Assembly (NCBI GenBank): GCA_045125935.1
Contig: JBGVNW010000068.1
Coordinates: 55,323-119,322 of the forward strand
Direction of reading: 5' to 3'
Source of the DNA: Bacilli bacterium
Lineage (GTDB): Bacteria; Bacillota_I; Bacilli_A; RF39; UBA660
Length of the DNA stretch: 64,000 nt
Shown here: positions 20,266 through 55,948 of the stretch, piece by piece
How the letters are laid out: each line of letters opens with the position of its first letter
How positions within the stretch are numbered: the stretch's first letter is position 1
Notes under the pieces: generated by a model
What the model was told of the DNA's origin: nothing
Database searches by the model: none
Seen by the model: only the letters and a program-made list of their open reading frames with translations
Program-made: the position numbers and the translations under genes

Positions 20266-20551
20266 ATTATTAACTATTAAAGAAACAGGAAAACTTCTTA
20301 ATGTAAGCAAACAAACACTTCAACGATGGGATAATAGTGGTAAACTAATAGCTATTAGAACAGAAGGTGGGCATAGAAGATATAAATTATCTGATATTGA
20401 AAAAATAATTAATATGAAAGATAAACAACAAGAAATATTAAATAAGGTGGAAGACTATCTTAGAGAAACATATATATCCGCAATAGGAGAAAAAGATTAT
20501 TCAATTGATGATATGATTGAACATTTTAGAAATTATTTTAATATAAAATAA
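20258..20551 (+). CDS. MerR/excisionase-type HTH protein resembling the N-terminal DNA-binding domain of IS607 TnpA, without the serine-recombinase domain
   Basis: MDRLLTIKETGKLLNVSKQTLQRWDNSGKLIAIRTEGGHRRYKLSDIEKI matches the IS607 TnpA N-terminus (..TLRRWDKEGKL..RTPGGHRRY..). No YARVSS-type catalytic block follows. It sits directly upstream of a tnpB-like gene. Confidence 0.7.
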   Translation: MDRLLTIKETGKLLNVSKQTLQRWDNSGKLIAIRTEGGHRRYKLSDIEKIINMKDKQQEILNKVEDYLRETYISAIGEKDYSIDDMIEHFRNYFNIK

Positions 20552-20560
20552 ACTTTAATT

Positions 20561-21373: not shown

Positions 21374-21468
21374 CATTCAATGAAAAAGAACATCAGGTTA
21401 ATATACATTTATGTGCTGATGGTGAACGATATATACCACAAGCAGGTAACAACATAGTAGGTATAGAT

Positions 21469-22197
21469 GTGAATTGTAAACATAACTTATTTGCTTTATC
21501 TAATGAAACAACATATGATTATGATAGAAAGTTAGTTAATGATTTCTGTAAATTATCATTAGAAATTGATAAACTTAAAAAGAATAAATCATATATAGTT
21601 GGTAAACGTAAACAATGGAAGTTAGATACGTTGAAACGTAAAATAATTCATTCAGAACAACAGATGATTGCATCAATGTGTAAGGAACTACATAATCAAG
21701 GTGTTAATCATATTGTGATGGAAGATTTGGATAATGGTTTTGGTAAATGTTATGTTAAAGATAGTGATAATGAAGATATAAACTATAATAGAAAGATTAA
21801 ATTTCTTGGATTATCATCATTGAAACAAGAAGTAGAACATATTGCGAGGAAATATGATATAGCTGTATCGACTGTACATAGTAGTTATACTAGTAAAATG
21901 TGTCCTATATGTGGATGTATTGAGGATGAGAATCGTCCAAATCAAGAAACCTTTGAATGCATTGAATGTGAATATAAAAGTAATGCAGATTTCAATGCCG
22001 CAAATAACATAAAAAACAGAGTGAGCATAACCGTGTTATGTAATTCACTCTTAAAACAATTGGATAATGGTGCTTATGAACCAAAGAAACTTAAAAGGGA
22101 AAAGGTAAAGGAAGTGCTATTATCGTTTCGAAGAAGCCTACGAAATGTAGGTAGTGAATGTATAGAATGTAGTTTGACTACATTTGACTATGTTTAA
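21469..22197 (+). CDS. tnpB: TnpB/Cas12-like nuclease, RuvC + zinc-finger segment (frame open from 21346)
   Basis: RuvC-I is in the open frame just upstream (NIVGIDVNCKHN). RuvC-II is HIVMEDLDN. The YTS motif and zinc finger read SSYTSKMCPICGC...FECIECEY. RuvC-III is NADFNAANNIKNR. Confidence 0.8.
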   Translation: MNCKHNLFALSNETTYDYDRKLVNDFCKLSLEIDKLKKNKSYIVGKRKQWKLDTLKRKIIHSEQQMIASMCKELHNQGVNHIVMEDLDNGFGKCYVKDSDNEDINYNRKIKFLGLSSLKQEVEHIARKYDIAVSTVHSSYTSKMCPICGCIEDENRPNQETFECIECEYKSNADFNAANNIKNRVSITVLCNSLLKQLDNGAYEPKKLKREKVKEVLLSFRRSLRNVGSECIECSLTTFDYV

Positions 22198-29695: not shown

Positions 29696-30076
29696 ATGTT
29701 TGATAAATCACAGCGGGGAAGTTTTAAATATCACTTTGCACATCTTTTTGCTTTCAATATGACAGCATTAAATCTTGGAGTTTGGAAATTCAAATATTTA
29801 TTTCACGATTTTGAGAAACCTTGGTTGATGTTGATATGGGAAGATTATTCAAGAGTACAGCAATATCACCGAAAGCATAATAATCATCATTTAGAATATA
29901 AAGGAAATTATGATTTTGAAGCAATGGTAATAGACTGGGAATGTAGTCGATTTACAAAATCAGCAATGTCATGGACAGCAAGACAAGAATATGAGCGAGT
30001 ACTTGCAGAATCACCAGAATTACCAAAATGGGTATTTCATGGCATAGAATCAACATTAATTAAATTAGGTTTATAA
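29696..30076 (+). CDS. hypothetical His-rich protein (126 aa)
   Basis: ORF track. Contains HDFEKPW...YHRKHNNHHLEY. Confidence 0.6.
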   Translation: MFDKSQRGSFKYHFAHLFAFNMTALNLGVWKFKYLFHDFEKPWLMLIWEDYSRVQQYHRKHNNHHLEYKGNYDFEAMVIDWECSRFTKSAMSWTARQEYERVLAESPELPKWVFHGIESTLIKLGL

Positions 30077-30528
30077 TGAAAAATTTGAAGTTTAGAGCAA
30101 AACGGTATAGCGATGGTAAATGGGTATATGGTAGTGGAGTTATATTTTGCGATGATTGTTGTTTCATAGATAAACGAGACGAATGCTATATTCAGAGACC
30201 ATATGCTTTCAGGGGAAATACACATTTTATAGAATTAGCATCAGTCATGTGTCTCGATAACACAGTCTGTCAATTTACAGGAATTAAAGATAAAAATGGT
30301 AAAGAAATTTATGACGGAGATATTATTCGAAGTTTTGACAGCAATAACAACGAGATTATACATTATATAACATGGCGAGAAACTGAAGCGAGATTTGTCG
30401 CAGTATATGATTATATCAATAAATGGCATATAGATTTAACATGTGGTCTACATCAAAAGTGGATAGATGAATACGGTAAAGAAATAATTGGAAATATATA
30501 CGATAATCCAGAAATATTAAATAAATAA
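30076..30528 (+). CDS. YopX-family phage protein
   Basis: KFRAKRYSDGKWVYGSG...CQFTGIKDKNGKEIYDGDIIR...IIGNIYDNPEIL is the classic YopX pattern. Confidence 0.75.
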   Translation: MKNLKFRAKRYSDGKWVYGSGVIFCDDCCFIDKRDECYIQRPYAFRGNTHFIELASVMCLDNTVCQFTGIKDKNGKEIYDGDIIRSFDSNNNEIIHYITWRETEARFVAVYDYINKWHIDLTCGLHQKWIDEYGKEIIGNIYDNPEILNK

Positions 30529-39415: not shown

Positions 39416-40225
39416 ATGAATATAAATTATCAATTAATACATGGTGATTGTTTTGAAAAAATGAAAGATTTGCGAGATAATTCTATAGATCTTACAGTTA
39501 CAAGTCCACCTTACGATAATCTTCGCAATTATGGGGGAATAATAGATGGATGGTCTTTCGAGAAATTTCAAGGAATTGCAAAAGAATTATACCGTATCAC
39601 AAAGGATGGCGGAGTGGTTGTATGGGTTGTAGGCGATGCAACTATTAAAGGAAGTGAAACTGGGAGTTCATTTCGTCAAGCGTTGTATTTTAAAGAGTGA
39701 GGGTTTAATTTGCACGACACTATGATATGGACGAAAAATGCTATACCCTACGATCCAAAATGTAACAGATATTGGCAAGGATTTGAATATATGTTTGTGC
39801 TATCCAAAGGTAAACCTAAAACATGCAATTATCTAACAGAACCATGTAAATTAGCAGGAAAACCTAAAACAAATGATTATGGTCAAAAAAGAATAGATGG
39901 AACAAATAGAGAAGACAGGAGAGATGAAAATAGAGTCATAAAAGAAACAAAGGTGAAAACCAATGTGTGGCATTTTGCTCCCGATGGACAGAAGACGAAT
40001 CATCCTGCCGTATTTCCCAGACAATTAGCACTTGACCATATTTTATCTTGGAGTAATGAAGGCGATGTTGTGTTTGATCCTTTCACTGGGAGCGGAACTA
40101 CAGGCATAATGGCAATTCTTAATGATAGAAATTTTATAGGTATAGAACTTAACGAAGAATACTTTAAAATAGCAAAAGAACGAATCGACAATGCTTTCGT
40201 TGAAAATAAAAACAAATTATTCTAA
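39416..40225 (+). CDS. beta-class DNA N6-adenine/N4-cytosine methyltransferase interrupted by an in-frame TGA (39698-39700)
   Basis: Motif IV is DLTVTSPPYDNL (N-terminal). Motif I is VVFDPFTGSGTTG (C-terminal), the beta-class order. The two track ORFs (39416..39700 and 39710..40225) are in the same frame: ...RQALYFKE*GFNLHDTMIWTKN. Confidence 0.8.
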
Positions 40226-40290
40226 TTGAATAATAAATGAAATTGACAGCAAATTGCTATCAGAAAAAAAAATAATTATTATTTTAAAAT

Positions 40291-40716
40291 ATGTATATCG
40301 CAGTAGATTTTGACGGAACTTGTGTGAGTCACGAGTATCCAAATGTGGGTAAAGATATTGGAGCAGTGCCTGTTTTGAAAGCACTTGTTGAAATTGGACA
40401 TAAGATTATTCTCAATACGATGAGGTCTGGTGATGAATTAGCGGATGCTATTCAGTGGTTTATTGATAATGATATTCCGTTATATGGCGTGAATGAAAAT
40501 CCAACCCAAAAAGAATGGACAGCATCACCCAAAGTTTATGCACATATTTATATAGATGATTGTGCATTTGGTTGCCCGCTTAAAATGGATCCTGCTATCG
40601 GCGACAAACCGTTTGTTGATTGGACAGCAGTTGAGAAAAATTTGATGGGAAATTTGAAACTATTATATGGAGATAATTTATCCAAATCTAAAATAATATA
40701 TGGAAATAAAACTTAA
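40291..40716 (+). CDS. HAD-superfamily-like hydrolase (141 aa)
   Basis: MYIAVDFDGTCV gives the DxDGT nucleophile motif at the N-terminus. The size is that of a small Rossmann-like protein. Confidence 0.6.
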   Translation: MYIAVDFDGTCVSHEYPNVGKDIGAVPVLKALVEIGHKIILNTMRSGDELADAIQWFIDNDIPLYGVNENPTQKEWTASPKVYAHIYIDDCAFGCPLKMDPAIGDKPFVDWTAVEKNLMGNLKLLYGDNLSKSKIIYGNKT

Positions 40717-41269
40717 ACTGATAGCAACCGATAATGATCGCAATATCGCCAAGAACATAGTTGAGAATCACCATTCTTATGTACCGACATTTAAAAGTGT
40801 GGGGAGAAGGATAGATTGGTTGATTGCTGTCGATAATGAAGTTGTCGGTATGATAGGAATCGGTTCATCAACATATCCGCCGTGTAAGGATATCTTGACC
40901 AGACTCGGTAAGACCAAGAGTGAATATAGGGAAATCTTCAACAACATTGCTAACAACTGGCGGTTCTGTATGTGTAAGAAAATTCCTAATGTTGGAACCA
41001 GAGTCTTGAAACTCCTCCGCCAGTAAGCACCAATAGAATGGAAAAAGAAATATGGAGATGAGTTGAGGTATTTGATTACATTTGTCGGCGGGGGGCATGA
41101 TGGTGCTGTATATAAAGCCGACAACTGGGAAGTGATTGGGAATACAGCGGGACTGCCGCAGCATAAATCTGTTTCTATGAAGTGGGATGATGCTGTCGGT
41201 TTGAAAGCAAAATTTGTAAAACCAACAGGGGAAAACAAAAAGGTTATATTCTTCAAAGAATTAAAATAA
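40700..41269 (+). CDS. DUF4338 (DruA-like)-resembling protein interrupted by an in-frame TAA (41024-41026)
   Basis: NNWRFCMCKKIPNVGTRVLKLLRQ*APIEWKKKYGDELRYLITFVGGGHDGAVYKADNWEVIGNTAG resembles, from memory, the DUF4338 pattern RF.I.P...NL.S.vL......W...YG....L.TFVD...F.GT.YkAaNW..vG.T.G. Both halves are in one frame. Confidence 0.45.
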
Positions 41270-41282
41270 TAATTATTATTTT
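41263..41282. repeat. perfect 20-bp A/T palindrome
   Basis: AAAATAATAATTATTATTTT, containing the TAA stop of the preceding gene. Confidence 0.95.
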
Positions 41283-41294
41283 TTATTAATTCAC

Positions 41295-41341
41295 TGACAG
41301 CAAACAAGATAGCAGTTGAATATATATGGTGATTGCTGTCA
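41295..41341. repeat. inverted TGACAGCA...TGCTGTCA pair ending in the 16-mer ATGGTGATTGCTGTCA
   Basis: TGACAGCA at 41295-41302. ATGGTGATTGCTGTCA at 41326-41341. Confidence 0.8.
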
Positions 41342-41376
41342 ATAAAAAAAAATATTATAAAAAACCTTCAAAAATA

Positions 41377-41408
41377 TTTGGAGGTTTCATTTTTTATTGC
41401 TATCTTTG
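41377..41408 (+). promoter_or_regulatory. Bacteroidota-type promoter with hairpin over the -33 box
   Basis: TTTG-N20-TATCTTTG. The repeat AAACCTTCAAA/TTTGGAGGTTT plus a T-run covers the -33 box. Confidence 0.7.
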
Positions 41409-41432
41409 TAGTGTAAAACTTAAACAACAACT

Positions 41433-41876
41433 ATGACACGAAAAGAACGAAAAGAATATATCCTCAACTTGGATAAGGTAGTAAGACGATGGAGAACTAA
41501 CTCTAAATTATTCGCAGGAGGTTGTTGCTTCTCATCTGGACAGATAGCAACATTACTTGAAAAGAAAGGTATTGGATATAAAGTGATTTGCTGGCAATGT
41601 GGAGATTTTAATGTGAAAAATCTAAAAGATATAATCTTAAATAACGATTGCTGTCATGTAGCCATTCAAGTCAGAATTGATAATCAGAAATTTATAATAG
41701 GTGGAAGTTTCTACTCTGGATGTAAAACGAATCGCAGAACATATACAGATATCAAAAGCAAAGAAATTATAGATTATGACCTGCTCGGACATTATAAAGG
41801 TTGCTGGAATAGAACATATAACAGAAACCTCAACAGCAGATTTACAAAAACATTGACGAATGCTGTCAATAAATAA
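41433..41876 (+). CDS. hypothetical protein (147 aa)
   Basis: ORF track. Confidence 0.6.
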   Translation: MTRKERKEYILNLDKVVRRWRTNSKLFAGGCCFSSGQIATLLEKKGIGYKVICWQCGDFNVKNLKDIILNNDCCHVAIQVRIDNQKFIIGGSFYSGCKTNRRTYTDIKSKEIIDYDLLGHYKGCWNRTYNRNLNSRFTKTLTNAVNK

Positions 41877-41908
41877 TAATTATTATTTTTATTTTTCTAC
41901 CAGCAAAA

Positions 41909-41940
41909 TTTGGTTATGTCAGAAAAAATGATTATCTTTG
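41909..41940 (+). promoter_or_regulatory. Bacteroidota-type promoter
   Basis: TTTG-N20-TATCTTTG. Confidence 0.7.
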
Positions 41941-41968
41941 TAATATAAAACTTAAAACAATAACGATT

Positions 41969-42229
41969 ATGATTATGATAAGCAATTTGAAAGCAAACGC
42001 AATGAATAAAGTAATGTATTTCATGGCAAACTGTGGTTATGATGCTGGCAAAAAACTGATCTATGATTCTTTTGACAAAAATCTGGCAGATCACATTTTC
42101 GATAAGTATATGGAGATTAGTGAGTATGCTAGCAGACCTTTCTTTGAGTTGTACTTTGCAGTGGACAACGATTGCAAAAAGGCTATCCTTAATTATATTG
42201 AGAACAACTATAACATTCCTGAAATCTAA
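41969..42229 (+). CDS. hypothetical protein (86 aa)
   Basis: ORF track. Confidence 0.55.
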   Translation: MIMISNLKANAMNKVMYFMANCGYDAGKKLIYDSFDKNLADHIFDKYMEISEYASRPFFELYFAVDNDCKKAILNYIENNYNIPEI

Positions 42230-42240
42230 TATATAATAAT

Positions 42241-42558
42241 ATGTATACAGCGAAAGATGCAAGAAATACTGTTATTGATTATGAAAGAAATCGCAATCAG
42301 GAGGAGTTAGAATTTCTATTAGACATAACAGACAATCGGATAGCATACGACATTGTTATTGAGAAAATCAAATCGCTTGCTTATAAAGGAGTGTCTGAAA
42401 TGTTGATTGAAAAAAAGAATAAAAGAGATACTGAACTGATTTCACTTTTTAAAGAAACGAATGTAGGAAAGATTTTGGATTATCTTGGTTATAGAATAGA
42501 AATGAAATTAGACAGTTTTGATCCGACTTTATTAGAATGGGTTAGAATTTCTTGGTAA
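42241..42558 (+). CDS. hypothetical protein (105 aa)
   Basis: ORF track. Confidence 0.6.
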   Translation: MYTAKDARNTVIDYERNRNQEELEFLLDITDNRIAYDIVIEKIKSLAYKGVSEMLIEKKNKRDTELISLFKETNVGKILDYLGYRIEMKLDSFDPTLLEWVRISW

Positions 42559-42573
42559 AAAATCATTAAAAAA

Positions 42574-42605
42574 TTTGGATAATTGAAAAAAAGTTATTAT
42601 CTTTG
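42574..42605 (+). promoter_or_regulatory. Bacteroidota-type promoter
   Basis: TTTG-N20-TATCTTTG. Confidence 0.7.
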
Positions 42606-42634
42606 TAGTGTAAAACTTAAAACAATAAAGCATT

Positions 42635-42826
42635 ATGGCAACAACGAATTATACACTAACAACAAATCGCAGTAAAAAAACCTATACTATCCGTAGATAT
42701 GACAACGGAAAGCTTACCAGCAAATATCGTAGTTATCCACAGGGTGATGAATATTCAGAACACTGGACAGAAAACGACATCAAGAATTTCTTGAAATATT
42801 CTGGAGATTACTATGTTGTTAAGTGA
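42635..42826 (+). CDS. hypothetical protein (63 aa)
   Basis: ORF track. Confidence 0.55.
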   Translation: MATTNYTLTTNRSKKTYTIRRYDNGKLTSKYRSYPQGDEYSEHWTENDIKNFLKYSGDYYVVK

Positions 42827-42888
42827 TTGCTGTCCGATGAGGTAAAATAAAAATAATAATTATTTTTTTCAAGAAAGTTGCTGAAAAA

Positions 42889-42921
42889 TTTGGAAATTCA
42901 AAAAAAAAGTTGTTATATTTG
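42889..42921 (+). promoter_or_regulatory. Bacteroidota-type promoter
   Basis: TTTG-N21-TATATTTG. Confidence 0.7.
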
Positions 42922-42950
42922 TAGTGTAAAACTTAAAACAACAAACAATT

Positions 42951-43196
42951 ATGGCACAAAAAAATCTCATTGAAAAAGACACATATGTATGCGTCTATAA
43001 TATTAAGGACAAAGACGGAAAGCATCTGAACAATTTGGAACTTAATGTTGGTAAAGAGATCCTGAAATCAGATGATGTCTATGAGGAATATGTCGGAAGA
43101 TTATATGTTGAGTCTGAAGATTTGGATAGTGCAGTATTTGATTATGTAAAGGAAATATATCCAGATTTTTTCACTTATGAATATGAAGTAGATTGA
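42951..43196 (+). CDS. hypothetical acidic protein (81 aa)
   Basis: ORF track. Its TGA stop is part of a TGACAGCA motif. Confidence 0.55.
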   Translation: MAQKNLIEKDTYVCVYNIKDKDGKHLNNLELNVGKEILKSDDVYEEYVGRLYVESEDLDSAVFDYVKEIYPDFFTYEYEVD

Positions 43197-43229
43197 CAGC
43201 AACCTGAAATCAAATGGCGAATGCTGTCA
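43194..43229. repeat. inverted TGACAGCA...TGCTGTCA pair with CTGAAATC in the spacer
   Basis: TGACAGCA 43194-43201, CTGAAATC 43204-43211, TGCTGTCA 43222-43229. Confidence 0.8.
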
Positions 43230-43257
43230 GAAAAAAATAAAAAAAGTTTCTGAAAAA

Positions 43258-43289
43258 TTTGGAAAAACAAAATATTTTTGTTATATTTG
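43258..43289 (+). promoter_or_regulatory. Bacteroidota-type promoter of the tRNA cluster
   Basis: TTTG-N20-TATATTTG. The first tRNA starts 30 nt downstream. Confidence 0.7.
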
Positions 43290-43318
43290 TAATGTAGTTC
43301 TTTGATAAGCATTGAAAC

Positions 43319-43699
43319 GGTCCTATAGCTCAGTTGGTTAGAGCATCTGACTTGATGTCCTATAAATTTCTCAAAAATATAAAAGTTTATAGGAGGTGGG
43401 TCGCAATATTGGAAACGATATTGTAGTAAGTGTTAAATTCATTGAAAGTCTTTATGGTAACATATTGTACCAACGATGAGCCAAATCCTTAACAGGAGAG
43501 GTGCAGAGACTATAATACACCACCTAAGTTATAGCACTTAACCAGATATGTGGTCATTCATATTTCTTAATAGGAGAATACCCCACGGTTAGGTGATGTA
43601 ATATGGTGAAGGCATAGTCCAAGTAAATGTATTTGAAATGAGATAGAATATATTTATAGCATAATCAGGAGGTCGTAGGTTCAAGCCCTACTGGGACCA
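43319..43699 (+). tRNA. tRNA with anticodon CAU (Met or lysidine-type Ile2) interrupted by a 307-nt intron between positions 33 and 34
   Basis: Exon 1 (43319-43352) is GGTCCTA-TA-GCTC-AGTTGGTTA-GAGC-A-TCTGA-CT. Exon 2 (43660-43699) is CATAA-TCAGG-AGGTC-GTAGG-TTCAAGC-CCTAC-TGGGACC-A. Joined, they form a canonical class I cloverleaf with anticodon loop CTCATAA. Confidence 0.8.
43353..43659 (+). ncRNA. group I (IC3-like) intron in the tRNA(CAU) anticodon loop
   Basis: The 5' exon ends in U and the intron ends in G. The core strings TATGGTAAC...GATGAGCCAAATCC...GGTGCAGAGACTATAATACACCACCTAAG parallel the Azoarcus tRNA-Ile intron as I remember it (UAUGGCAAC...GCCGAGCCAAGC...GGUGUAGAGACUAGACGGCACCCACCUAAGG). 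Confidence 0.7.
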
Positions 43700-43821
43700 C
43701 AAAATATACTGAAGCAATCTGAAAAATAATGATGATTGCTGTCGGGAAAATAAAAATAATTATTATTTCAGAAATGAAATGATATGAAATGGATAGCAAA
43801 AGAGATTGCTATTTTACAAAT

Positions 43822-44240
43822 GCTCTCTTAGCATAATGGATAATGCAACAGCCTTTAAGCAAATGTTTACATGAAATAGGAGTGCATACCCTGTAAAGGG
43901 TCGCTGGGAAACCAGTTATGTAGAAGTCCCCTAAACGGTGAAACCTTAACGGGTAGTGCTGATGGCAACACCGTGCCAATGTTATTAACGGAGATGACAT
44001 CTCGCAAGAGTTCAGAAAATAAAAGTCGGAGTTATAGACAGTGTGTAGAGAATCTACGGGGACAACCTAAGTTGAAATAGTGTACAGATTTCAATATGGT
44101 TGAGATTGATTCCAGACCACAAACAATTCACAATGTTTATAAAAGTACTTTTGGAAATGAAGACATTGTTAATAATTGGTAGTGAAAACTATAGTGGTAG
44201 GCTAAGCTGTCGATTGCTGGTTCGAGTCCAGCAGAGAGTA
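43822..44240 (+). tRNA. tRNA-Arg(UCU) (most parsimonious reading) interrupted by a 346-nt intron between positions 34 and 35
   Basis: Exon 1 (43822-43855) is GCTCTCT-TA-GCAT-AATGGATA-ATGC-A-ACAGC-CTT. Exon 2 (44202-44240) is CTAA-GCTGT-CGATT-GCTGG-TTCGAGT-CCAGC-AGAGAGT-A. This is a class I cloverleaf. The splice points were chosen so that the 5' exon ends in U, the intron ends in G and the loop has 7 nt (CTTCTAA). Confidence 0.7.
43856..44201 (+). ncRNA. group I (IC3-like) intron in the tRNA-Arg anticodon loop
   Basis: GGGTCGCTGGGAAACCAG parallels GGGTCGC plus a GAAA-loop hairpin in the first intron. The core GTGTAGAGAATCTACGGGGACAACCTAAG...CAATATGG parallels the Azoarcus ...GUAGAGACUAGACGGCACCCACCUAAGG...CUAUGG. 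Confidence 0.65.
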
Positions 44241-44263
44241 CAAAATAAAATTAAAAAACCAGT

Positions 44264-44830
44264 ATGAAAGAATTGAAAGAATGTCCAATTCATGGTTTAA
44301 CAGAATTTACATTTTATAAAACATCTTCACACAATGGACAATTTAAGTGTAATAAATGTGAAGTAGAGTTATCAACTTTAAAAAACCAAAAAAGAAAAAT
44401 TAAAGCGGTTGAATATAAAGGTGGAAAATGTGAATTGTGTAAGTATGATAAAAATATATCTGCTTTGGAGTTTCACCACTTAAATCCAGACGAAAAGGAT
44501 TTTACAATTTCTGGATTTAAATGTGGTTGGGAAGACTTAAAAAAAGAATTAGACAAATGTATAATGGTTTGTGCTAATTGTCATAGGGAAATACACAACC
44601 CACATTCAACTATACAGAATATTAAAGAACTGATAGAAAAACATGAAATTGACATTAAGATTAAACAGGAAACATATAAGCGAAATAGACCTTCAAAATA
44701 CAAATTTACTTTAGATGAAGTTAATAAAAAAAGATTGGAGTGTTCTAACTGGGAAGAAGTTGCAGATTTTTATGATATGAGTATATCAACTTTAAAAAGA
44801 CATCGCAAAGAATTAAAAAATAAAAAATAA
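44264..44830 (+). CDS. free-standing HNH endonuclease (homing-endonuclease-like)
   Basis: CELCKYDKNISALEFHHLNPDEKDF...MVCANCHREIHN is the HNH motif. Zinc-ribbon N-terminus (CPIHG...CNKC) and HTH-like C-terminal tail. Located 24 nt after the intron-containing tRNA-Arg. Confidence 0.8.
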   Translation: MKELKECPIHGLTEFTFYKTSSHNGQFKCNKCEVELSTLKNQKRKIKAVEYKGGKCELCKYDKNISALEFHHLNPDEKDFTISGFKCGWEDLKKELDKCIMVCANCHREIHNPHSTIQNIKELIEKHEIDIKIKQETYKRNRPSKYKFTLDEVNKKRLECSNWEEVADFYDMSISTLKRHRKELKNKK

Positions 44831-44835
44831 AATTT

Positions 44836-44893
44836 TGTCAGCAATCTGAAATCTAATGATGATTGTTATGAAATCAGATGGTGATTGCTGTCA
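44836..44893. repeat. composite intergenic repeat (TGTCAGCA, CTGAAATC, ATGGTGATTGCTGTCA)
   Basis: CTGAAATC at 44846-44853. Exact 16-mer ATGGTGATTGCTGTCA at 44878-44893. Confidence 0.8.
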
Positions 44894-44923
44894 AAAAAGA
44901 TATTTGAAATATTTGATAAGGAG

Positions 44924-45007
44924 GCAGGAATGTTGTAATAGGTAGCCAAGAGGCACTTAAAATGCCTTGACCATTTGGTCGTGCGGGTTCGAGTCCCGCT
45001 TCCTGTA
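44924..45007 (+). tRNA. tRNA-Leu(UAA), uninterrupted
   Basis: GCAGGAA-TG-TTG..CAA-G-AGGCA-CTTAAAA-TGCCT, then the long variable arm TGACCATTTGGTCGT, then GCGGG-TTCGAGT-CCCGC-TTCCTGT-A. Class II cloverleaf of 84 nt. Confidence 0.85.
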
Positions 45008-45030
45008 CAAAAAAATTAAATAAACTATAT

Positions 45031-45101
45031 TGACAGCAAACGCCAATTTTATGCAGTCAAATGAAATCAAATGAAGATTGATGTTATGGTGATTGCTGTC
45101 A
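45031..45101. repeat. inverted TGACAGCA...ATGGTGATTGCTGTCA pair
   Basis: TGACAGCA at 45031-45038. Exact 16-mer at 45086-45101. Confidence 0.8.
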
Positions 45102-45125
45102 GAACATTAAAAAACTGAAAGCATT

Positions 45126-45740
45126 ATGTTAAATTTTCTGAAATCAAAAACAAAGTATGAATATGTAGAAAAATATGCATACTTTACAAATGGCAAAAAA
45201 ATCTATAGAGTATCATTGGAAGAATTCATTGATAAGAAAGACCTTCAACTATCTCGTGATGAATTGTTCAACAAGTATGGTTTTTATGTGAGTGAATATT
45301 CTCTTGACAGCGGCATCTTTGAAGACTGGAATGCTATTGGATCACATGATAATCTATCAGATTATATCGGAGGAGACATGAAGGAAATTAATTCAACAGA
45401 ATTGCAATTTGCTATCAACAGTATTAAAAATAACTTTCAAAAGAAATTTGATGAATTGCAATTAGATGGGACATTATATACTTATAATGTATATGCCCTT
45501 TATGAAACATCTTGCTTTCAAAAGATCGCAAAGGTTAAGAGAAAGTTGGTCAATAAAGAAAGAAATGACGATTACAGACTTTTTCTTGAAATCGAAATCC
45601 TTGATGGAAAATCAGCAGAGACTAAACGAGAATTCATTCCGTTCGTTGAATTTATTACGGAATATAAATCAGGTTGTGATCTTGAAGTAGTTGACAGCGG
45701 TGATAAATGGATCACCAAAGTTGAAGAGTATTTTGATTGA
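45126..45740 (+). CDS. hypothetical protein (204 aa)
   Basis: ORF track. Confidence 0.6.
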   Translation: MLNFLKSKTKYEYVEKYAYFTNGKKIYRVSLEEFIDKKDLQLSRDELFNKYGFYVSEYSLDSGIFEDWNAIGSHDNLSDYIGGDMKEINSTELQFAINSIKNNFQKKFDELQLDGTLYTYNVYALYETSCFQKIAKVKRKLVNKERNDDYRLFLEIEILDGKSAETKREFIPFVEFITEYKSGCDLEVVDSGDKWITKVEEYFD

Positions 45741-45821
45741 ATCTGAAATCAAAAGATAGCGAATGCTAACGGAGAGAAAAAAAAAATAATTATTATTTCT
45801 GAAATCAAAAGCAATTTACTT

Positions 45822-46082
45822 ATGGTAAAGATATCATATTATTATGATCCTATTATGAAATCGTATGAAGAACGATACTATATGGATTATTATTGTTCGG
45901 ACGGTAAAACCCGCTTGTGGGCAGGTAGATGTATATCAGACACGCCGACAGCATTATTAAAAGATATCCGAAATATTGTGGCAGGTCTTAATAAACCGAG
46001 AGCATTATTTGGGCAGAATGGTAAATTGTCTCAATGGTTCTGGTGGAGGCGGGTCATCAGAAATCAAAAGAAATTAAGATAG
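45822..46082 (+). CDS. hypothetical protein (86 aa)
   Basis: ORF track. Confidence 0.5.
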   Translation: MVKISYYYDPIMKSYEERYYMDYYCSDGKTRLWAGRCISDTPTALLKDIRNIVAGLNKPRALFGQNGKLSQWFWWRRVIRNQKKLR

Positions 46083-46096
46083 AAGATGGGGATAGA

Positions 46097-46133
46097 GGGC
46101 GATAGCGTTGTGAAACGACATCGCTCTTTTTTT
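46097..46133 (+). terminator. intrinsic terminator (CGTT-GTGA-AACG loop family)
   Basis: GGGCGATAGCGTT-GTGA-AACGACATCGCTC with a 2-nt internal mismatch, followed by T7. Confidence 0.7.
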
Positions 46134-46235
46134 ATATCAACAAAAAAATAAAATTGCTGTCGACATAAATAATATAGAGATGATAATTTAAGAGCAATAT
46201 TAGCAATTTCCATAAATAATTTTATTGTTGTATGA

Positions 46236-46273
46236 GGGTGATGCCAAATTTTTGGTGTCGCCCTTTTTTTTTT
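46236..46273 (+). terminator. intrinsic terminator
   Basis: GGGTGATGCCAAA..TTTGGTGTCGCCC followed by T10. Confidence 0.7.
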
Positions 46274-46361
46274 GACAGCAATCGTCAATTATTTTCGTTT
46301 GCTATTAGAAATAATAATTATTTTTTGTTATATTTAATATGTAATTAAATGAAATCAGAAG

Positions 46362-46676
46362 ATGGAGGACAACAATTTTTACAACCCGATTAACAATCCG
46401 AAATTCAATACAGTGGAAGAACTTTGCGAATACCTGGAAGCACAAGGTCATGAAGGGACTGTATTTTTTGAGAATCCAAGTTTCGTCAAAGCGATCATTG
46501 GAATCACTGACAGCGAGCAGTTGATATATGATTATGATCTGATGATAGCAGCGGCGATGGAAGAAGAAGGATGGGATGTTGAGGGTGCTATCGAGTGGAT
46601 AGATTACAACACGCTACGATCAATACCATATATGGGAAATTATCATCCGATAGTTATCTTTCCCATAAACTGGTAA
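46362..46676 (+). CDS. conserved small phage/plasmid protein (104 aa)
   Basis: ...YDYDLMIAAAMEEEGWDVEGAIEWIDYNTLRSIPYMG is a pattern I recognise from many phage hypothetical proteins. Function unknown. Confidence 0.6.
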   Translation: MEDNNFYNPINNPKFNTVEELCEYLEAQGHEGTVFFENPSFVKAIIGITDSEQLIYDYDLMIAAAMEEEGWDVEGAIEWIDYNTLRSIPYMGNYHPIVIFPINW

Positions 46677-46767
46677 AGACACTATATATACTTTCTCCGA
46701 ATGGTGGTGGATGCTGGCAGTATGTCACTCCGTCACCATTTGTTAATAATAATTATTTTTATTTTTT

Positions 46768-48405
46768 ATGAAATCAACAGACAAACTTAATCTTTTTGGC
46801 GAACCGCTATCAGATGAAATTGAAAGAAATGTGGTGAAAAACAAGACATTATCTTTTAAAAAGAAATACAAGGCAACCCAAGACTATCACTATATGCCGA
46901 TTAAGAATATGAAACATCGGAAAGCAACCAAACAGTTTTTATCTGAAATGCTTGGACTTCAGACAGCAGGTTGGACAACTGACCAGATTTTGTATGCTAT
47001 CGGACGGGAATTGACAGCAGGTAAGCAATTACCAGACTTTCATCTGAAATCCAAAAGCAATTTGAAGATATCTATACCAGATGATGTTCGAGAAGAGCAT
47101 GATCTAATTGGTGGTTGCTATCAATATTTGAGCACAAAACACGAGAGACTCAAAAAAGGATCCTTTTATACTACAGAAAGAATTATTGAAAGAATCGTTA
47201 TTGGTCTTGATATTGATGGAGACACTTCTGTATTTGATCCATCTTGTGGGAGTGGGAATCTAATATTGAACAGTAAGGTTATTAACCCAAAACAAGTACA
47301 TGGCATTGATATTGATCCACTGGCAGTGATGTGCTGTCAGTTCAATTACTATCTGAAATTTGGGAACGACGCACCTGAACCTGATATCAGATGTATGAAC
47401 TTCTCGGATCTGGTGAAACAGGGATGTGATCTGAAATTTGATGTAATCCTGTGCAATCCACCGTATGGGGCGGAGATGAATATATCTGGAGTGAATTCTG
47501 AAATCAGAAGCACTGACTGTTTGGATTTCTTCGTAGAGCATGCGAGCAAGATGGCGGCGGAGTCTGTCTTCGTGCTACCAGAAACTGTAATCAATGTAAA
47601 GAAGCACGAGAACTTGAGATCTTGGATTCTACAGAAAAAGAAATTGTCTGCAATTCAAAGCTTTGGGGCTGGAATTGATAGCACATTATATAATATAGTA
47701 TCATTGACCTTAAATCATAAAGAAAAAAATAATTATTTTTTTGATGGAAAGCAGGTAGATTATGATTTTACCATCAATGTGTTGGACAGCAAATTTCGTC
47801 CGATCGGAGGAGATGAGATGGAATTCATTCGAAAGATGTATGCTATACCTCATCAGACATTAGAGAAGTGTAAACATGTAACGGGAATAGTAACTGGGGA
47901 TGATGAGAAGTTTTTATTAGATGAACCGACAGCAAGTTCTGAACCAGTGATTACTGGGAAGCACATAGAACCATATAAGATCACAGGAGAGAAATATATT
48001 AATTACGAAGATGTTCGTGGGCAGTTGGCGATCGCTGTCAAGGACTCATATTTCCGAACACCAGAAAAACTCATTTATCATACAGTATCCAGAAATTTAG
48101 AGTTTGCTATCGACACTGACAGCAGGCTTACTACCTGCACTGCGAATTTCTTTTTGGTGAAAGATATCAGGGTGAGTACTAAATGTATTATGGCGATGTT
48201 TAACTCTCGGATATATAATCGCATCAACGAGTTACTCTTCGGTGACAAAGTGAATCGTGGAGGCAATATTAAAAAATTACCTATCCCGATTCTGGATGAA
48301 GACCAGCAGCGGCGGATGGAGAAATATGTGGATGATGAGAATTACGCAGCGATTGAAGAGATGCTCGCTGATTTCTTTCAGATTTATGATAGCAAAATAA
48401 AATAA
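46768..48405 (+). CDS. gamma-class N6-adenine DNA methyltransferase (Eco57I/TaqI-like), apparently orphan
   Basis: Motif I is SVFDPSCGSGNLIL. Motif IV is DVILCNPPYG. There is a large C-terminal TRD-like region. No endonuclease partner is nearby. Confidence 0.85.
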   Translation: MKSTDKLNLFGEPLSDEIERNVVKNKTLSFKKKYKATQDYHYMPIKNMKHRKATKQFLSEMLGLQTAGWTTDQILYAIGRELTAGKQLPDFHLKSKSNLKISIPDDVREEHDLIGGCYQYLSTKHERLKKGSFYTTERIIERIVIGLDIDGDTSVFDPSCGSGNLILNSKVINPKQVHGIDIDPLAVMCCQFNYYLKFGNDAPEPDIRCMNFSDLVKQGCDLKFDVILCNPPYGAEMNISGVNSEIRSTDCLDFFVEHASKMAAESVFVLPETVINVKKHENLRSWILQKKKLSAIQSFGAGIDSTLYNIVSLTLNHKEKNNYFFDGKQVDYDFTINVLDSKFRPIGGDEMEFIRKMYAIPHQTLEKCKHVTGIVTGDDEKFLLDEPTASSEPVITGKHIEPYKITGEKYINYEDVRGQLAIAVKDSYFRTPEKLIYHTVSRNLEFAIDTDSRLTTCTANFFLVKDIRVSTKCIMAMFNSRIYNRINELLFGDKVNRGGNIKKLPIPILDEDQQRRMEKYVDDENYAAIEEMLADFFQIYDSKIK

Positions 48406-48561: not shown

Positions 48562-49132
48562 ATTATAAAAAGGATCCTTTTCTCAAGTTTGCTATCGACA
48601 GCAGGTCGTCGATAAAAGGATCCTTATGGATGTGAGATAACTGTAATGTACTACATTAGCAAATTATTGATATTCTTATAGATAATATTTTATATGTTTT
48701 TTTTGAAATTTGACATTTGTTATAAAAAAAAATTATTATTATTTCGGAGAGATGAAGGAGAGATGATGATTTGCTATCGGAAAGCAACCCTTGAAATTCA
48801 CACACGCATATATTATATAAGGTGTATCCATCCTGATAGCAAAACCTGCAACTACCTGATCACCTGCTATCACCTGATATCAGAAGGATGAAACAGGATA
48901 CCTGTTTTAAGGTCCTATAGTATTACAAAAATTTCAACGATCACCCTTCGGGTGGTATATTTGGTCGTCTGAAAAATTTAAAGCGATTTTAGGACATTTA
49001 TGTGCGTCTTTTAAATCTGCTATCTGAAATCCGACAGCAAAATAAAAAAATAATTATTATTTTTCTCATAAATGTCTGATTTTCAATCAGATAAAAAATA
49101 ACATTATTTTTTGAAAAAAAGTTGGTAAAAAA

Positions 49133-51663: not shown

Positions 51664-52503
51664 ATGAAATATTCAACAATTTATAGAACAGAAAATACTC
51701 AACGATATTTCAAAGATATCAGCAGTTCAAAATATGATCCTATCGAAGAAGATGATGATGTTAGAAAAATGTTCAGAGATAGAGAACAATACAGAGATAT
51801 TATCATAAACGCTCATATCAGATTGGTAGCAACACTCGCAAAGGAGTATGATGCTAATGATAAGTTTATGGACTACAACCAAGAAGGTATAGAAGGTTTG
51901 TTGGGAGCTTTCGAAAAATACGATCCAGATAGCAATGCTAAATTTTCTACTTACGCATCATATTGGATTAAGGCAAAGATGTCTATGCTCTGTAAAGATT
52001 TCAATGTGGTGCAACGAAGTAATCAATCAAAGATTGGTTCAAAAGCACAGAAGTTCAAAGAAAAATTCTTCGCAGAAAATATGCGAGAAGCATCAACAGA
52101 TGAAATCGTTGAACATCTTTCGAAAGAACACAACATCGATATTCTGTATGATACTGAAATACACAACATTTCAGTGAAAAGTATCAACGACGAGTTAGAT
52201 GATGACGGACTCACACCTGAAACAAGTGGAGAGTTCGCAGTAAAAACAGCGTGCGAAAACGATTTCGTCAAAACTATATATGACGAAGATCTAAAAGCTG
52301 CTGTCAGCAAAATGATGAAAGTTCTCAACGCAAAAGAAATGGAATACATTACAAGACATATCTTTAACGAAGAAACTTATAATAGTATTGCAGATACTGC
52401 TGGTTGTACTAATGAGCGAGTTCGCCAGATTGTTGAAGGTGGATTGCGTAAAATGAGAAAGTGTGAATTTACACAAAAACATTTCGCTTGCTTCTTAAAA
52501 TAA
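51664..52503 (+). CDS. phage-encoded sigma-70 family RNA polymerase sigma factor
   Basis: Region 2 is IINAHIRLVATLAKEY...YNQEGIEGLLGAFEKYDPDSNAKFSTYASYWIKAKM. Region 4 is YNSIADTAGCTNERVRQIVEGGLRKMRK. Confidence 0.85.
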   Translation: MKYSTIYRTENTQRYFKDISSSKYDPIEEDDDVRKMFRDREQYRDIIINAHIRLVATLAKEYDANDKFMDYNQEGIEGLLGAFEKYDPDSNAKFSTYASYWIKAKMSMLCKDFNVVQRSNQSKIGSKAQKFKEKFFAENMREASTDEIVEHLSKEHNIDILYDTEIHNISVKSINDELDDDGLTPETSGEFAVKTACENDFVKTIYDEDLKAAVSKMMKVLNAKEMEYITRHIFNEETYNSIADTAGCTNERVRQIVEGGLRKMRKCEFTQKHFACFLK

Positions 52504-55790: not shown

Positions 55791-55809
55791 ATTTATGAAT
55801 ATATTTTCA

Positions 55810-55901
55810 CTCTGACAGCATTTCTCTTATCAAGTGGTATAAAGTATCACCTGAAAAATTTGAGGGGCTTAAATCGCATTAAATTGCGTTTGCTGTCAGA
55901 G
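55810..55901. repeat. 11-bp inverted repeat CTCTGACAGCA...TGCTGTCAGAG flanking an 70-nt spacer
   Basis: Arms at 55810-55820 and 55891-55901, read directly from the sequence. Confidence 0.8.
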
Positions 55902-55948
55902 CGAAAAAATAATTATTATTTTTGAAAAAAGTTAAATCAAATACAATT

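What the first reader, a model, noticed from the sequence alone, without database searches (positions are those of the whole stretch)
41288..46310. Composite intergenic repeat around the tRNA cluster: TGACAGCA ... CTGAAATC ... ATGGTGATTGCTGTCA
The spacers at 41295-41341, 43194-43229, 43716-43744, 44836-44893, 45031-45101 and 45741-45770 share one plan. A left TGACAGCA(A) arm is followed by a spacer that usually contains (T)CTGAAATC(A)AATG. A right arm then ends the unit.

The right arm is an exact 16-mer, ATGGTGATTGCTGTCA, in three copies (41326, 44878, 45086).

Close variants occur elsewhere:
- ATGATGATTGCTGTCG at 43729
- ATGGCGAATGCTGTCA at 43214
- ATGATGATTTGCTATCG at 48763

The arms can pair, so each unit could be an RNA or DNA hairpin of 35-70 nt.

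Read as coding sequence, the right arm would start mini-ORFs such as MVIAV(K/R/N)..., MMIAVG... and MANAVR....

The same arm logic recurs at 55810-55901 with 11-bp arms (CTCTGACAGCA/TGCTGTCAGAG).

These look like a family of small structured elements, either MITE/REP-like or regulatory. They frame the intron-containing tRNAs and the HNH gene.
Basis: seen in the sequence. Interest (0 to 1): 0.65.

Follow-up and report, generated by a model that had tools for sequence, protein, structure and literature searches.

The report
Conserved hairpin spacers between phage cassettes
A short, strongly conserved, one-way-oriented DNA unit sits between small genes and tRNA genes of an uncultured cattle-gut phage. 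Its two arms are copies of a 10-letter word that this phage family keeps all over its genome, and gene cassettes are gained and lost at these units, but what reads them is still unknown.

Summary
The 16-mer ATGGTGATTGCTGTCA occurs exactly three times. The general GAYAGCA enrichment does not explain this (1 of 5000 flank shuffles).

**The unit is a real family in related phages.** Relatives from rumen and gut metagenomes carry the same unit. Its consensus is ttcTGACAGCAATC-TGAAATCyrATGACGG-TTGCTGTCAgaaa. It always points the same way as the genes. It fills whole spacers between small ORFs or sits just before an AATAATTATT palindrome plus a host-type promoter.

**The window has four good copies:** 43191, 43707, 44833 and 45028. 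The copy at 41292 is a half copy and 45741 is a decayed one. The site at 48763 lies inside a gene. The element at 55810 is different and shares only the arms.

**The arms are not private to the unit.** They are the best version of a family-wide duplex-DNA word, T-TGCTRTC-A-R. The word is equally common on both strands, is kept at matching positions inside genes, and tends to occur in inverted pairs.

**Features that are not supported:**
- Pairing shows no covariation, and the left arm is often missing.
- The mini-ORFs are not supported.
- No transposase or integrase is present.

**Recombination.** Insertion and deletion breakpoints between relatives fall in the units.

**Best reading:** a PeSL-like cassette-boundary module. 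The reader protein and the role of the conserved core are unknown.

The parts
43191..43234 (+). Canonical unit: TGACAGCAA / CCTGAAATCAAATGGCGAA / TGCTGTCA. Its first TGA is the stop codon of ORF 42951-43196.
   Evidence: Covariance model R1 gives 59.1 bits on the + strand and 23.4 on the - strand. Fold is -11.2 kcal/mol, z -2.7.
43707..43749 (+). Unit with a decayed left arm (TGAAGCAAT). It starts 7 nt after the tRNA-Met 3' exon and is followed by the AATAATTATT palindrome at 43756.
   Evidence: R1 gives 40.1 bits on + and 15.6 on -. Fold z -4.6.
44833..44898 (+). Unit with a tandem-duplicated core (GAAATCTAATGATGATTGTTAT / GAAATCAGATGGTGATTGCTGTC). It starts 3 nt after the HNH stop codon and lies 26 nt before tRNA-Leu.
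   Evidence: R1 gives 52.7 bits on + and 22.7 on -. Alignment A1. The left edge of a strain indel is at 44892.
45028..45106 (+). Unit with an expanded interior. It lies 20 nt after tRNA-Leu and 20 nt before ORF 45126-45740.
   Evidence: R1 gives 38 bits on + and 31 on -. Fold is -24.5 kcal/mol, z -4.3.
45741..45775 (+). Decayed remnant of a unit (CTGAAATC, GATAGCG, TGCTAAC). It is the right edge of the tRNA-Leu plus ORF204 indel.
   Evidence: Sequence. Not found by R1 at E<=1. No fold signal, z 0.05. Joint 44892->45776 in RNA contigs.
41292..41346 (+). Half unit: both arms plus ATGGTGATT but no TGAAATC core. It lies after, not before, the palindrome at 41269.
   Evidence: R1 gives 31.3 bits on + and 32.4 on -, so no strand preference. 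Holds the exact 16-mer.
55806..55905 (+). A different structured spacer clamped by 11-bp arms made of the same word (CTCTGACAGCA / TGCTGTCAGAG).
   Evidence: Fold is -36 kcal/mol, z -5.8. Conserved in L133 at 5809-5902. R1 gives only 19-24 bits.
43319..43700 (+). Flanked cassette: tRNA-Met(CAT) split by a 307-nt intron (43353-43659).
   Evidence: RNA contigs join 43352 to 43660 in three runs. ARAGORN calls tRNA-Met on the spliced sequence.
43820..44830 (+). Flanked cassette: a second split tRNA (halves at about 43822-43858 and 44196-44243) followed by HNH ORF 44264-44830.
   Evidence: Sequence. Weak HNH Pfam hit. The anticodon could not be resolved.
44924..45008 (+). Flanked cassette: tRNA-Leu(TAA).
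   Evidence: ARAGORN and Rfam at 49.6 bits.
43753..43772 (.). One example of the A/T palindrome AAATAATTATTATTT that follows units and precedes promoter modules. The window has 50 copies of ATAATTATT.

Best explanation
**What it is.** The units are boundary modules between early-gene and tRNA cassettes of an uncultured rumen phage lineage with Bacteroidota-type promoters. Functionally they resemble the promoter-early stem-loop (PeSL) cassettes of T4-type phages.

**Anatomy.** Each unit has two parts.
- Two inverted, near-consensus copies of a 10-bp word, T-TGCTRTC-A-R. The whole lineage keeps this word under selection on duplex DNA.
- An oriented core held at fixed spacing from the right-hand word: TGAAATC-N2-ATG-N6-TGCTGTC.

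**Proposed working.**
- The word is read on double-stranded DNA by a phage-encoded factor. This is inferred. DNA-level selection on the word is shown.
- The unit is the two-site, polar version of the word placed between cassettes.
- Copies within one genome are kept alike, and they provide at least 30 nt of homology at which cassettes are inserted, deleted and duplicated. Breakpoints in the units are shown.
- When transcribed, a full unit can also fold into a 9-14 bp stem-loop that may insulate neighbouring cistrons. This is possible but not required, because the left arm is dispensable.
For: **Family and orientation.**
- The same 44-nt unit occurs in L136, L147-L152 and L158, only in the sense orientation.
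- Covariance-model scores are about 30 bits higher on the sense strand.
- The spacing from core to right arm is fixed even when the core is duplicated in tandem.

**Position.** Units fill whole spacers of about 64 nt between small ORFs, or sit 5-8 nt before the AATAATTATT palindrome plus promoter. In the window they start 0-20 nt after a stop codon or a tRNA end.

**The arms are a duplex-DNA word.**
- The window has 155 sites against about 9 expected.
- Density is 3.7 per kb in coding sequence and 4.8 per kb in spacers.
- Across the family there are 276 sense and 278 antisense sites, with the same flank preferences on both.
- The same enrichment appears in all relatives, including those at 39% GC.
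- 39% of sites are kept at matching positions in relatives of 65-76% DNA identity, against 11-13% of control 7-mers.
- Neighbours within 60 nt are inverted 46 times and direct 11 times. With units excluded the counts are 32 and 11.

**Recombination at units.**
- L149 lacks ORF70 through unit-by-unit recombination.
- L149, L150 and L151 carry insertions next to a unit, with the core plus right arm duplicated.
- A strain variant lacks tRNA-Leu plus ORF204, with its edges at 44892 and about 45776.
- The three identical 16-mers in the window differ from the relatives' ATGACGGTTGCTGTCA, which points to homogenisation within a genome.

**Synteny blocks** between the window and L132/L133 end at the palindrome and promoter modules.

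**PeSL properties** were taken from PMC2839356 and PMC4122927.
Against: - No binding protein has been identified, and nothing shows that the word is bound or modified.
- All genes in the region lie on one strand. Orientation relative to transcription therefore cannot be separated from orientation relative to the genome axis.
- The breakpoints could come from ordinary homologous recombination at any repeat. The commoner breakpoints are in the palindrome and promoter modules, not in the units.
- The conserved core (TGAAATC..ATG) has no explanation in this model.
- The RNA evidence consists of assembled contigs from related strains, which cannot show transcript ends.
Confidence: 0.4

Rival explanations
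1. The unit works mainly as an RNA stem-loop between cistrons. It would be a processing site, a 3'-end protector or an attenuator, and a nuclease or RNA-binding protein would read the conserved loop. Comparable cases are the RNase III sites between T7 early genes and the stem-loop of PeSLs.
For: - Stable predicted hairpins: the relatives' consensus folds at -20.4 kcal/mol, z -6.7, and the window copies have z from -2.3 to -4.6.
- Intercistronic or 3'-UTR position and sense orientation.
- The units are contained in metatranscriptome contigs.
- A KH-domain protein is encoded nearby in relatives.
Against: - No covariation, and pairing is no better than in shuffles.
- No excess of G.U over A.C.
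- The left arm is missing or decayed in about 8 of 30 units, while the core plus right arm is always kept.
- There is no T-run after the stem. True hairpin-plus-T-run terminators exist elsewhere, for example at 46234-46265 and 41362-41387.
- The arms are a word selected on both strands inside genes, which an RNA signal does not explain.
Confidence: 0.25
2. The core plus right arm is a promoter for the phage's own sigma factor (ORF 51664-52503). TGAAAT would be the -35-like box and the TCAGAAA region the -10-like box. This would give promoter-less cassettes a middle-phase promoter.
For: - A two-box motif with fixed spacing, oriented with the genes.
- It lies 13-30 nt upstream of start codons or tRNAs that lack a host-type TAnnTTTG promoter.
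- The left arm is dispensable.
- A conserved phage sigma factor exists.
Against: - Many units are followed at once by the palindrome, a hairpin with a T-run and a host-type promoter, which is an odd place for a promoter.
- RNA contigs run through the units from upstream, for example from 45026.
- The word that forms the supposed -10 region is equally common in antisense and inside genes.
- No other upstream regions share the TGAAATC box.
Confidence: 0.1
3. The units are small non-autonomous mobile elements (MITE- or REP-like), or attC-like recombination sites moved by a recombinase encoded elsewhere in the genome.
For: - Inverted 9-14 bp ends, small size, many copies and similarity between copies within a genome.
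- Cassette indels at units, with a duplicated core plus right arm.
- Seven-base inverted cores around a variable spacer at cassette 3' ends recall attC sites.
Against: - No integrase and no genuine Y1 transposase among the 131 ORFs of the window.
- No target-site duplications were seen.
- Orthologous units keep their place between close relatives.
- The pattern is absent from 185,579 reference genomes apart from chance hits, and absent from IMG/VR.
- Single arms are abundant and conserved inside genes.
Confidence: 0.08
4. The right arm starts translated mini-ORFs (MVIAVK..., MANAVR...) that act as leader peptides.
For: The ATG is invariant in all 16 aligned units. An in-frame stop follows within 7-10 codons in most copies.
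Against: - The variable positions are codon positions 1 and 2 of codons 2 and 3, while position 3 is fixed. This is the reverse of coding constraint.
- L152_6479 reads ATG TAA.
- Three of the four window copies are followed by tRNA genes, not ORFs.
- The ATG is part of a repeating 10-nt TGAAATCNRA/TGA pattern.
Confidence: 0.02
5. The units are a chance by-product of the general GAYAGCA enrichment and its tendency to form inverted pairs.
For: Inverted pairs of the word at all spacings from 7 to 60 nt are common even without the core. The sites at 41292 and 55810 share only the arms.
Against: - Three identical 16-mers arose in 1 of 5000 flank shuffles.
- The core and its spacing are conserved in relatives whose DNA is otherwise not alignable, and only in the sense orientation.
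Confidence: 0.03

Closest known systems
PeSL (promoter-early stem-loop) cassettes of T4-type phages (Arbiol et al. 2010, PMC2839356; Comeau et al. 2014, PMC4122927)
   Same: - Repeated composite intergenic modules (stem-loop, A/T-rich stretch, host-type early promoter) concentrated among small orphan early genes.
- Indels and replacements between related phages have their edges in the modules.
- Copies within a genome resemble each other.
- The authors also speculated that the conserved stem might be a protein target.
   Different: - Here the stem arms are a specific 10-bp word that is also kept all over the genome inside genes.
- The loop is conserved, oriented and at fixed spacing, and the left arm is dispensable.
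- No T-run follows. The hairpin with a T-run sits separately inside the promoter module.
- The promoters are of the Bacteroidota -33/-7 type.
- Terminator activity and mini-circles have not been tested here.
DNA uptake sequences of Neisseria (DUS) and Pasteurellaceae (USS); comparison from my own knowledge of that literature
   Same: A short asymmetric word, about 1-4 per kb, equally frequent on both strands, found in genes and spacers. It often occurs as inverted pairs that form stem-loops at gene ends.
   Different: - A phage has no uptake machinery.
- The word is not enriched in 33 kb of rumen Bacteroidota chromosome or in a Bacteroides plasmid.
- The units add an oriented conserved core.
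REP/BIME elements with RAYT transposases (from my own knowledge)
   Same: Imperfect palindromes of about 35-45 nt with conserved stems, found after genes in many copies.
   Different: No RAYT or Y1 transposase in the window. There is no GTAG head. Single arms are abundant and conserved within coding sequence.
Integron attC sites (from my own knowledge)
   Same: Inverted 7-bp cores around a variable spacer at the 3' end of each cassette, with fixed orientation. Cassettes are gained and lost at the sites.
   Different: - No integrase or attI was found.
- The core sequence is different (attC has GTTRRRY).
- The cores occur hundreds of times inside genes.
- Many cassettes have their own promoter.
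RNase III processing hairpins between T7 early genes (from my own knowledge)
   Same: Conserved hairpins between early cistrons on one strand.
   Different: There is no evidence of cleavage here. Pairing is not under detectable selection, and the arms are sequence-constrained rather than structure-constrained.

Membership tests
PeSL-like regulatory cassette | Composite intergenic module that combines a stem-loop with a host-type early promoter and is repeated many times | tested here: met
   The window holds 50 ATAATTATT palindromes, most followed by a TTG...TAnnTTTG promoter module. Units sit 5-8 nt upstream of these modules in the window and in relatives.
PeSL-like regulatory cassette | Indel and replacement edges between related phages fall in the modules | tested here: met
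   unit-by-unit deletion of ORF70, insertions beside units, the tRNA-Leu plus ORF204 variant, and synteny blocks that end at palindromes.
PeSL-like regulatory cassette | The stem-loop terminates transcription, and mini-circles form by recombination | not testable with these tools
   This needs reporter assays and inverse PCR. The unit has no T-run.
Intrinsic (Rho-independent) terminator | G+C-rich hairpin followed directly by a T-run | tested here: not met
   The terminator scan over 40000-47000 flags 46234-46265, 41362-41387 and others, but none of the units. The units are followed by A-rich sequence.
Structured RNA family | Base pairs maintained by compensatory changes | tested here: not met
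   Two cells show double changes, which is no more than in shuffles. 86.2% of cells pair against 87.1% in shuffles. Five of the 14 stem pairs never vary, and the rest change no more than in shuffles, so the test has little power.
Known Rfam family | Match to a curated covariance model | tested here: not met
   Only tRNA-Leu reaches threshold. At E<=1 nothing overlaps a unit.
REP/RAYT | A cognate Y1 (HUH) transposase encoded in the genome | tested here: not met
   Pfam scan of all 131 ORFs. The only Y1_Tnp hit (10149-10625) scores 20.7 bits against a cut-off of 23, has a signal peptide and lacks the HUH motif. Only 64 kb of the genome was seen.
MITE | Terminal inverted repeats with target-site duplication, and presence/absence of the element alone | tested here: inconclusive
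   Inverted ends are present. No target-site duplication was seen. The polymorphisms observed involve whole cassettes, not the unit alone.
Integron attC / cassette array | Tyrosine recombinase IntI plus attI, and attC with a GTTRRRY core | tested here: not met
   No Phage_integrase domain in the window's ORFs. The core sequence differs.
Uptake-sequence-like or Chi-like host word | The same word is enriched in the host genome | tested here: inconclusive
   No enrichment in L163 plus L164 (10 sites against 7.9 expected) or in plasmid p5482 (5 against 8). The true host is unknown and only about 66 kb was sampled.
Leader-peptide ORF | Conservation pattern typical of coding sequence, and an intact ORF in all copies | tested here: not met
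   Variation lies at codon positions 1 and 2. One copy reads ATG TAA.

The most novel reading that the evidence does not exclude
The 10-bp word T-TGCTRTC-A-R is a 'self' mark of this phage lineage, read on duplex DNA by a phage factor. One candidate is the orphan Eco57I/TaqI_C-type N6-adenine methyltransferase, which is 66-97% conserved across the lineage and encoded a few kb from the tRNA cluster. Under this reading the core-bearing units are polar, attC-like boundary and recombination sites of a phage-borne gene-cassette system.
Probability: 0.15. Interest if true: 0.85.

Novelty: new variant of a known kind. Interest (0 to 1): 0.55.

Why it matters
**What is known already.** Large phages keep banks of small orphan early genes that turn over quickly. 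For T4-type phages the only described vehicle for that turnover is the PeSL module.

**What this adds.** An unrelated, uncultured rumen lineage has an analogous but more elaborate boundary element. It is tied to a genome-wide selected word and to an oriented conserved core. Contigs of this lineage reach 305 kb, and its promoters are of the Bacteroidota type.

**If the word is bound or methylated.** The word reaches about 3.5 sites per kb, is strand-symmetric and tends to occur in inverted pairs. If a phage factor binds or methylates it, this would be a phage counterpart of uptake-sequence-like self-marking. The units would then give a handle on how cassettes are exchanged.

**Practical use.** The 44-nt unit and the word are cheap sequence signatures for recognising this phage lineage in metagenomes.

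Tried and rejected
**Searches for close relatives that found nothing.**
- Megablast of 41000-46600 against 50,697 phage records gave no match.
- tblastn of the sigma factor found only hits below 30% identity.
- The IMG/VR scan with the 16-mer gave only single chance hits.
- The IMG/VR scan with the A/T palindrome gave only AT-rich giant-virus chance hits.
- The IMG/VR scan with the core-plus-arm pattern gave nothing.
- The sigma-factor peptide scan of IMG/VR gave nothing.

**GTDB genomes.** The scan with the unit pattern gave 7 hits. None has a left arm or word enrichment, so they are chance.

**Literature.** A search for the motif strings returned only primer noise.

**Y1 transposase.** I traced a weak Y1_Tnp hit through four further Pfam searches. 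It is a false positive.

**Host-word mimicry.** Chi-like or uptake-like mimicry of a host word is not supported by the small Bacteroidota samples available.

**Conversion drive.** A very-short-patch-repair-like drive is rejected because one-mismatch neighbours of the word are not depleted; several are enriched.

**Fixed-spacing dimer operator.** This is not supported as a general model. Inverted pairs occur at every spacing from 7 to 60 nt, with only small peaks at 7-8 and 27.

**Selection for pairing at the R/Y position.** This is not seen. The mismatched pair TGCTATC...GACAGCA is the commonest.

**RNA contigs.** They are too chimeric at repeats to map transcript ends. One read-laying run failed on a filter.

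**Promoter box.** A search for TGAAATC as a general upstream box found none.

Full report
**Setting.** The window is AT-rich (30% G+C), and nearly all ORFs lie on the + strand. Its spacers follow one plan. A stop codon is followed by the A/T palindrome AAATAATAATTATTATTT (50 copies of ATAATTATT). Next comes a small hairpin with a T-run that overlaps a TTG box. Then comes a TAnnTTTG box with a conserved leader, TAGTGTAAAAC. From my own knowledge this is the Bacteroidota -33/-7 promoter type.

Recognisable genes include:
- a sigma-70-family factor (51664-52503);
- an Eco57I/TaqI_C-type N6-adenine methyltransferase (46768-48405);
- an HNH gene, a radical-SAM protein and an SPFH protein;
- a MerR-HTH ORF next to a TnpB-like fragment.

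No isolated phage is close. The sequence is held by bovine gut metagenome runs. Sigma-factor homologues of 60-97% identity are numerous in ENA, Logan and JGI assemblies.

**Observation.** The 16-mer ATGGTGATTGCTGTCA is present exactly at 41326, 44878 and 45086, and the quoted variants are present too. TGCTRTC/GAYAGCA occurs 155 times (76 on +, 79 on -) against about 9 expected. I therefore asked whether the composite is more than this background. I shuffled the flanks of all 155 sites column by column. A 16-mer present three times appeared in 1 of 5000 runs. The units fold as predicted.

**The unit is a conserved, oriented family.** I fetched relatives through the sigma factor (L132, L133, L136, L156, L158, L160). 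I also scanned metagenome contigs for the pattern CTGAAATCNNATGNNGNNTGCTGTC, which returned L146-L153. These relatives carry the same plan.

The consensus is ttcTGACAGCAATC TGAAATCyrATGACGG TTGCTGTCAgaaa. It is 44 nt long and has a potential 14-bp stem at -20.4 kcal/mol.

- L136 has a sigma factor only 67% identical and 39% G+C, and its DNA is otherwise hardly alignable to the window. It still has three units.
- In an alignment of 16 units the invariant columns are GACAGCAA, C-TG-AAT, ATG and GCTGTC.
- Longer units contain one to three tandem copies of about 10 nt, TGAAATCNRA. The copy nearest the right arm always keeps the same spacing to it.
- All 28 core-bearing units point the same way as the genes, against one spurious antisense match.
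- A covariance model scores them about 30 bits higher on the sense strand.

In the window the model finds four good copies, all in the tRNA cluster: 43191, 43707, 44833 and 45028. The copy at 41292 scores the same on both strands because it has no core. The copy at 45741 is too decayed to be found. The site at 48763 is inside ORF 48694-48891. The element at 55810-55901 shares only the arms and is conserved as a separate structured spacer in L133.

**Position.** In relatives the unit often makes up the whole spacer of about 64 nt between two small ORFs. It starts 4-9 nt after the stop codon and ends 13-25 nt before the next ATG. Otherwise it sits 5-8 nt before the palindrome and promoter module. 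In one conserved 114-aa ORF the coding sequence runs into the unit (...GTC AAG CAA TCT GAA ATC TGA), and there the left arm is decayed.

In the window:
- the unit at 43191 contains the stop codon of ORF 42951-43196;
- the others start 3-20 nt after the HNH gene, tRNA-Met and tRNA-Leu.

**What the arms are.** The word is a property of duplex DNA across the whole lineage.
- **Where it lies.** It is as dense in coding sequence (3.7 per kb) as in spacers (4.8 per kb) between 36 and 64 kb, and it occurs in all usable reading frames.
- **Precise form.** It is YGCT(G>A>T)TC with T before it and A-R after it.
- **Strand balance.** Across the family there are 276 sites in sense and 278 in antisense, with the same flank preferences.
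- **Relatives.** Every relative shows the same enrichment, 2-5.8 per kb.
- **Controls.** 1.15 Mb of unrelated viral loci, a Bacteroides plasmid and 33 kb of rumen Bacteroidota chromosome show no enrichment.
- **Retention.** Sites inside orthologous genes are kept far more often than control 7-mers: 27 of 70 against 11-13% at 65-76% DNA identity. New sites also arise.
- **Pairing of neighbours.** Neighbouring sites within 60 nt are mostly inverted: 46 against 11 in a non-redundant set, and 32 against 11 with units removed. Both head-to-head and tail-to-tail pairs occur, over a broad range of spacings.
- **No selection for pairing.** The variable R/Y position is not matched for pairing. TGCTATC...GACAGCA is the commonest combination.

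The arms of the units are therefore two near-consensus copies of this word.

**Is the hairpin the point?** The evidence says probably not.
- There is no covariation.
- There is no excess of G.U over A.C.
- The left arm is decayed or absent in about 8 of 30 units. TGAAATC..ATG......TGCTGTC is always kept.
- No T-run follows, whereas canonical hairpin-plus-T-run terminators exist nearby.

One caveat applies. All genes share one strand, so the constant orientation does not by itself show an RNA function.

**Mini-ORFs.** The variable positions are the first and second positions of codons 2 and 3, while the third positions are fixed. One unit reads ATG TAA. Three of the four window copies precede tRNAs. 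I reject this reading.

**Mobility.** Pfam scans of all 131 ORFs found no integrase. The only Y1_Tnp hit is below threshold and lies in a signal-peptide protein without an HUH motif. Orthologous units stay in place among L147, L149, L151 and L152, differing only by loop duplications.

**Recombination.** Three kinds of event place cassette edges in units.
- L149 lacks ORF70, and the single remaining unit combines the left flank of one unit with the right flank of the next.
- L149, L150 and L151 have one or two extra ORFs beside a unit, with the core plus right arm duplicated.
- Metatranscriptome contigs of a related strain join 44892 (the last base of TGCTGTC) to about 45776. This removes tRNA-Leu, the 45028 unit and ORF204.

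Synteny blocks between the window and L132/L133 mostly end at the palindrome and promoter modules. Copies within a genome share lineage-specific letters: the window has ATGGTGATT and the L15x group has ATGACGGTT. This indicates homogenisation within a genome.

**Interpretation.** The whole arrangement behaves like the PeSL cassettes of T4-type phages. Those are repeated stem-loop-plus-early-promoter modules among orphan early genes that mediate modular shuffling (PMC2839356, PMC4122927). It differs in three ways:
- the stem is made of a genome-wide selected word;
- the loop is a conserved, polar core at fixed spacing;
- the left arm is dispensable.

I therefore favour a DNA-level boundary and recombination module whose reader is unknown (confidence 0.4). 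Next come a purely RNA role (0.25), a promoter for the phage sigma factor (0.1), a mobile or attC-like element (0.08), chance (0.03) and leader peptides (0.02).

**Possible link to the methyltransferase.** The methyltransferase is 66-97% conserved across the lineage. Its nearest cellular homologues (42-44% identity) lie in rumen Bacteroidota chromosomes. A link to the word is attractive but untested.

**Limits.**
- No raw reads were available.
- The RNA contigs come from related strains and are chimeric at repeats.
- The host is unknown.
- Only 64 kb of a genome that may exceed 300 kb was seen.

Noticed in passing
whole window; densest 36000-64000: A genome-wide word, T-TGCTRTC-A-R (GAYAGCA), occurs 155 times against about 9 expected. 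It is balanced between strands, lies in genes and spacers, is kept at matching positions in relatives and prefers inverted neighbours. Density rises from 1-7 per 4 kb (0-36 kb) to 13-21 per 4 kb (36-64 kb). Its function is unknown.
   Followed up: partly
window, 50 sites, e.g. 7261, 11639, 23469, 25620, 49632, 55181, 63062: The palindrome AAATAATAATTATTATTT is followed by an almost invariant promoter module of about 100 nt: a hairpin with a T-run overlapping TTG, then TAnnTTTG and TAGTGTAAAAC. The module is shared with relatives and coincides with the ends of synteny blocks.
   Followed up: partly
window 43319-43700: tRNA-Met(CAT) is interrupted by a 307-nt intron (43353-43659) between positions 33 and 34. 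The spliced form is present in three metatranscriptome runs. No Rfam intron model matches it even at E<=1.
   Followed up: partly
window 43820-44245: A second split tRNA carries an insert of about 340 nt, and its anticodon could not be resolved. Metatranscriptome contig depth over 43921-44174 reaches the thousands. This may reflect an abundant intron RNA or cross-matching to related introns.
   Followed up: partly
window 46768-48405; L156, L158, L160, L163, L164: An orphan Eco57I/TaqI_C-type N6-adenine methyltransferase is 66-97% identical across the phage lineage and sits next to the sigma factor. The next-best homologues (42-44%) lie in rumen Bacteroidota chromosomes beside housekeeping genes. 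It appears deleted in the close relative L132.
   Followed up: partly
window 20258-22197: A MerR/HTH_17 ORF (20258-20548), a 270-aa ORF and a TnpB-like ORF with a Cas12f1-like TNB domain (21469-22197) lie together. This looks like an IS607-type remnant.
   Followed up: no
window 55806-55905; L133 5809-5902: A 100-nt spacer upstream of the DUF1281_C/Api92-like ORF folds at -36 kcal/mol (z -5.8). It is closed by 11-bp arms made of the word and is conserved in L133 with several substitutions.
   Followed up: partly
window 46090-46332: RNA contigs of two runs skip 241 nt here. The skipped stretch holds two canonical terminators and a TGACAGCAA copy, which suggests another strain-level indel.
   Followed up: no
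window 38057, 48590; L132 7652; L156 14962, 17566; L158 1399: Tail-to-tail word pairs with a gap of 0-1 nt form 14-15 bp palindromes (TGCTATC-N-GAYAGCA). Some lie inside genes. This gives a small peak in the spacing distribution.
   Followed up: no
window 40700-41023, 30076-30525, 2264-3763, 26090-27682: Other domain hits: DruA-like (weak), YopX, SPFH/flotillin and radical SAM. Relatives carry Acb3, KH_2 and WYL_2 proteins near the sigma factor.
   Followed up: no
protein P0180: One methyltransferase homologue (75% identity) lies on a 305,537-nt contig, so the lineage may be a jumbo phage.
   Followed up: no
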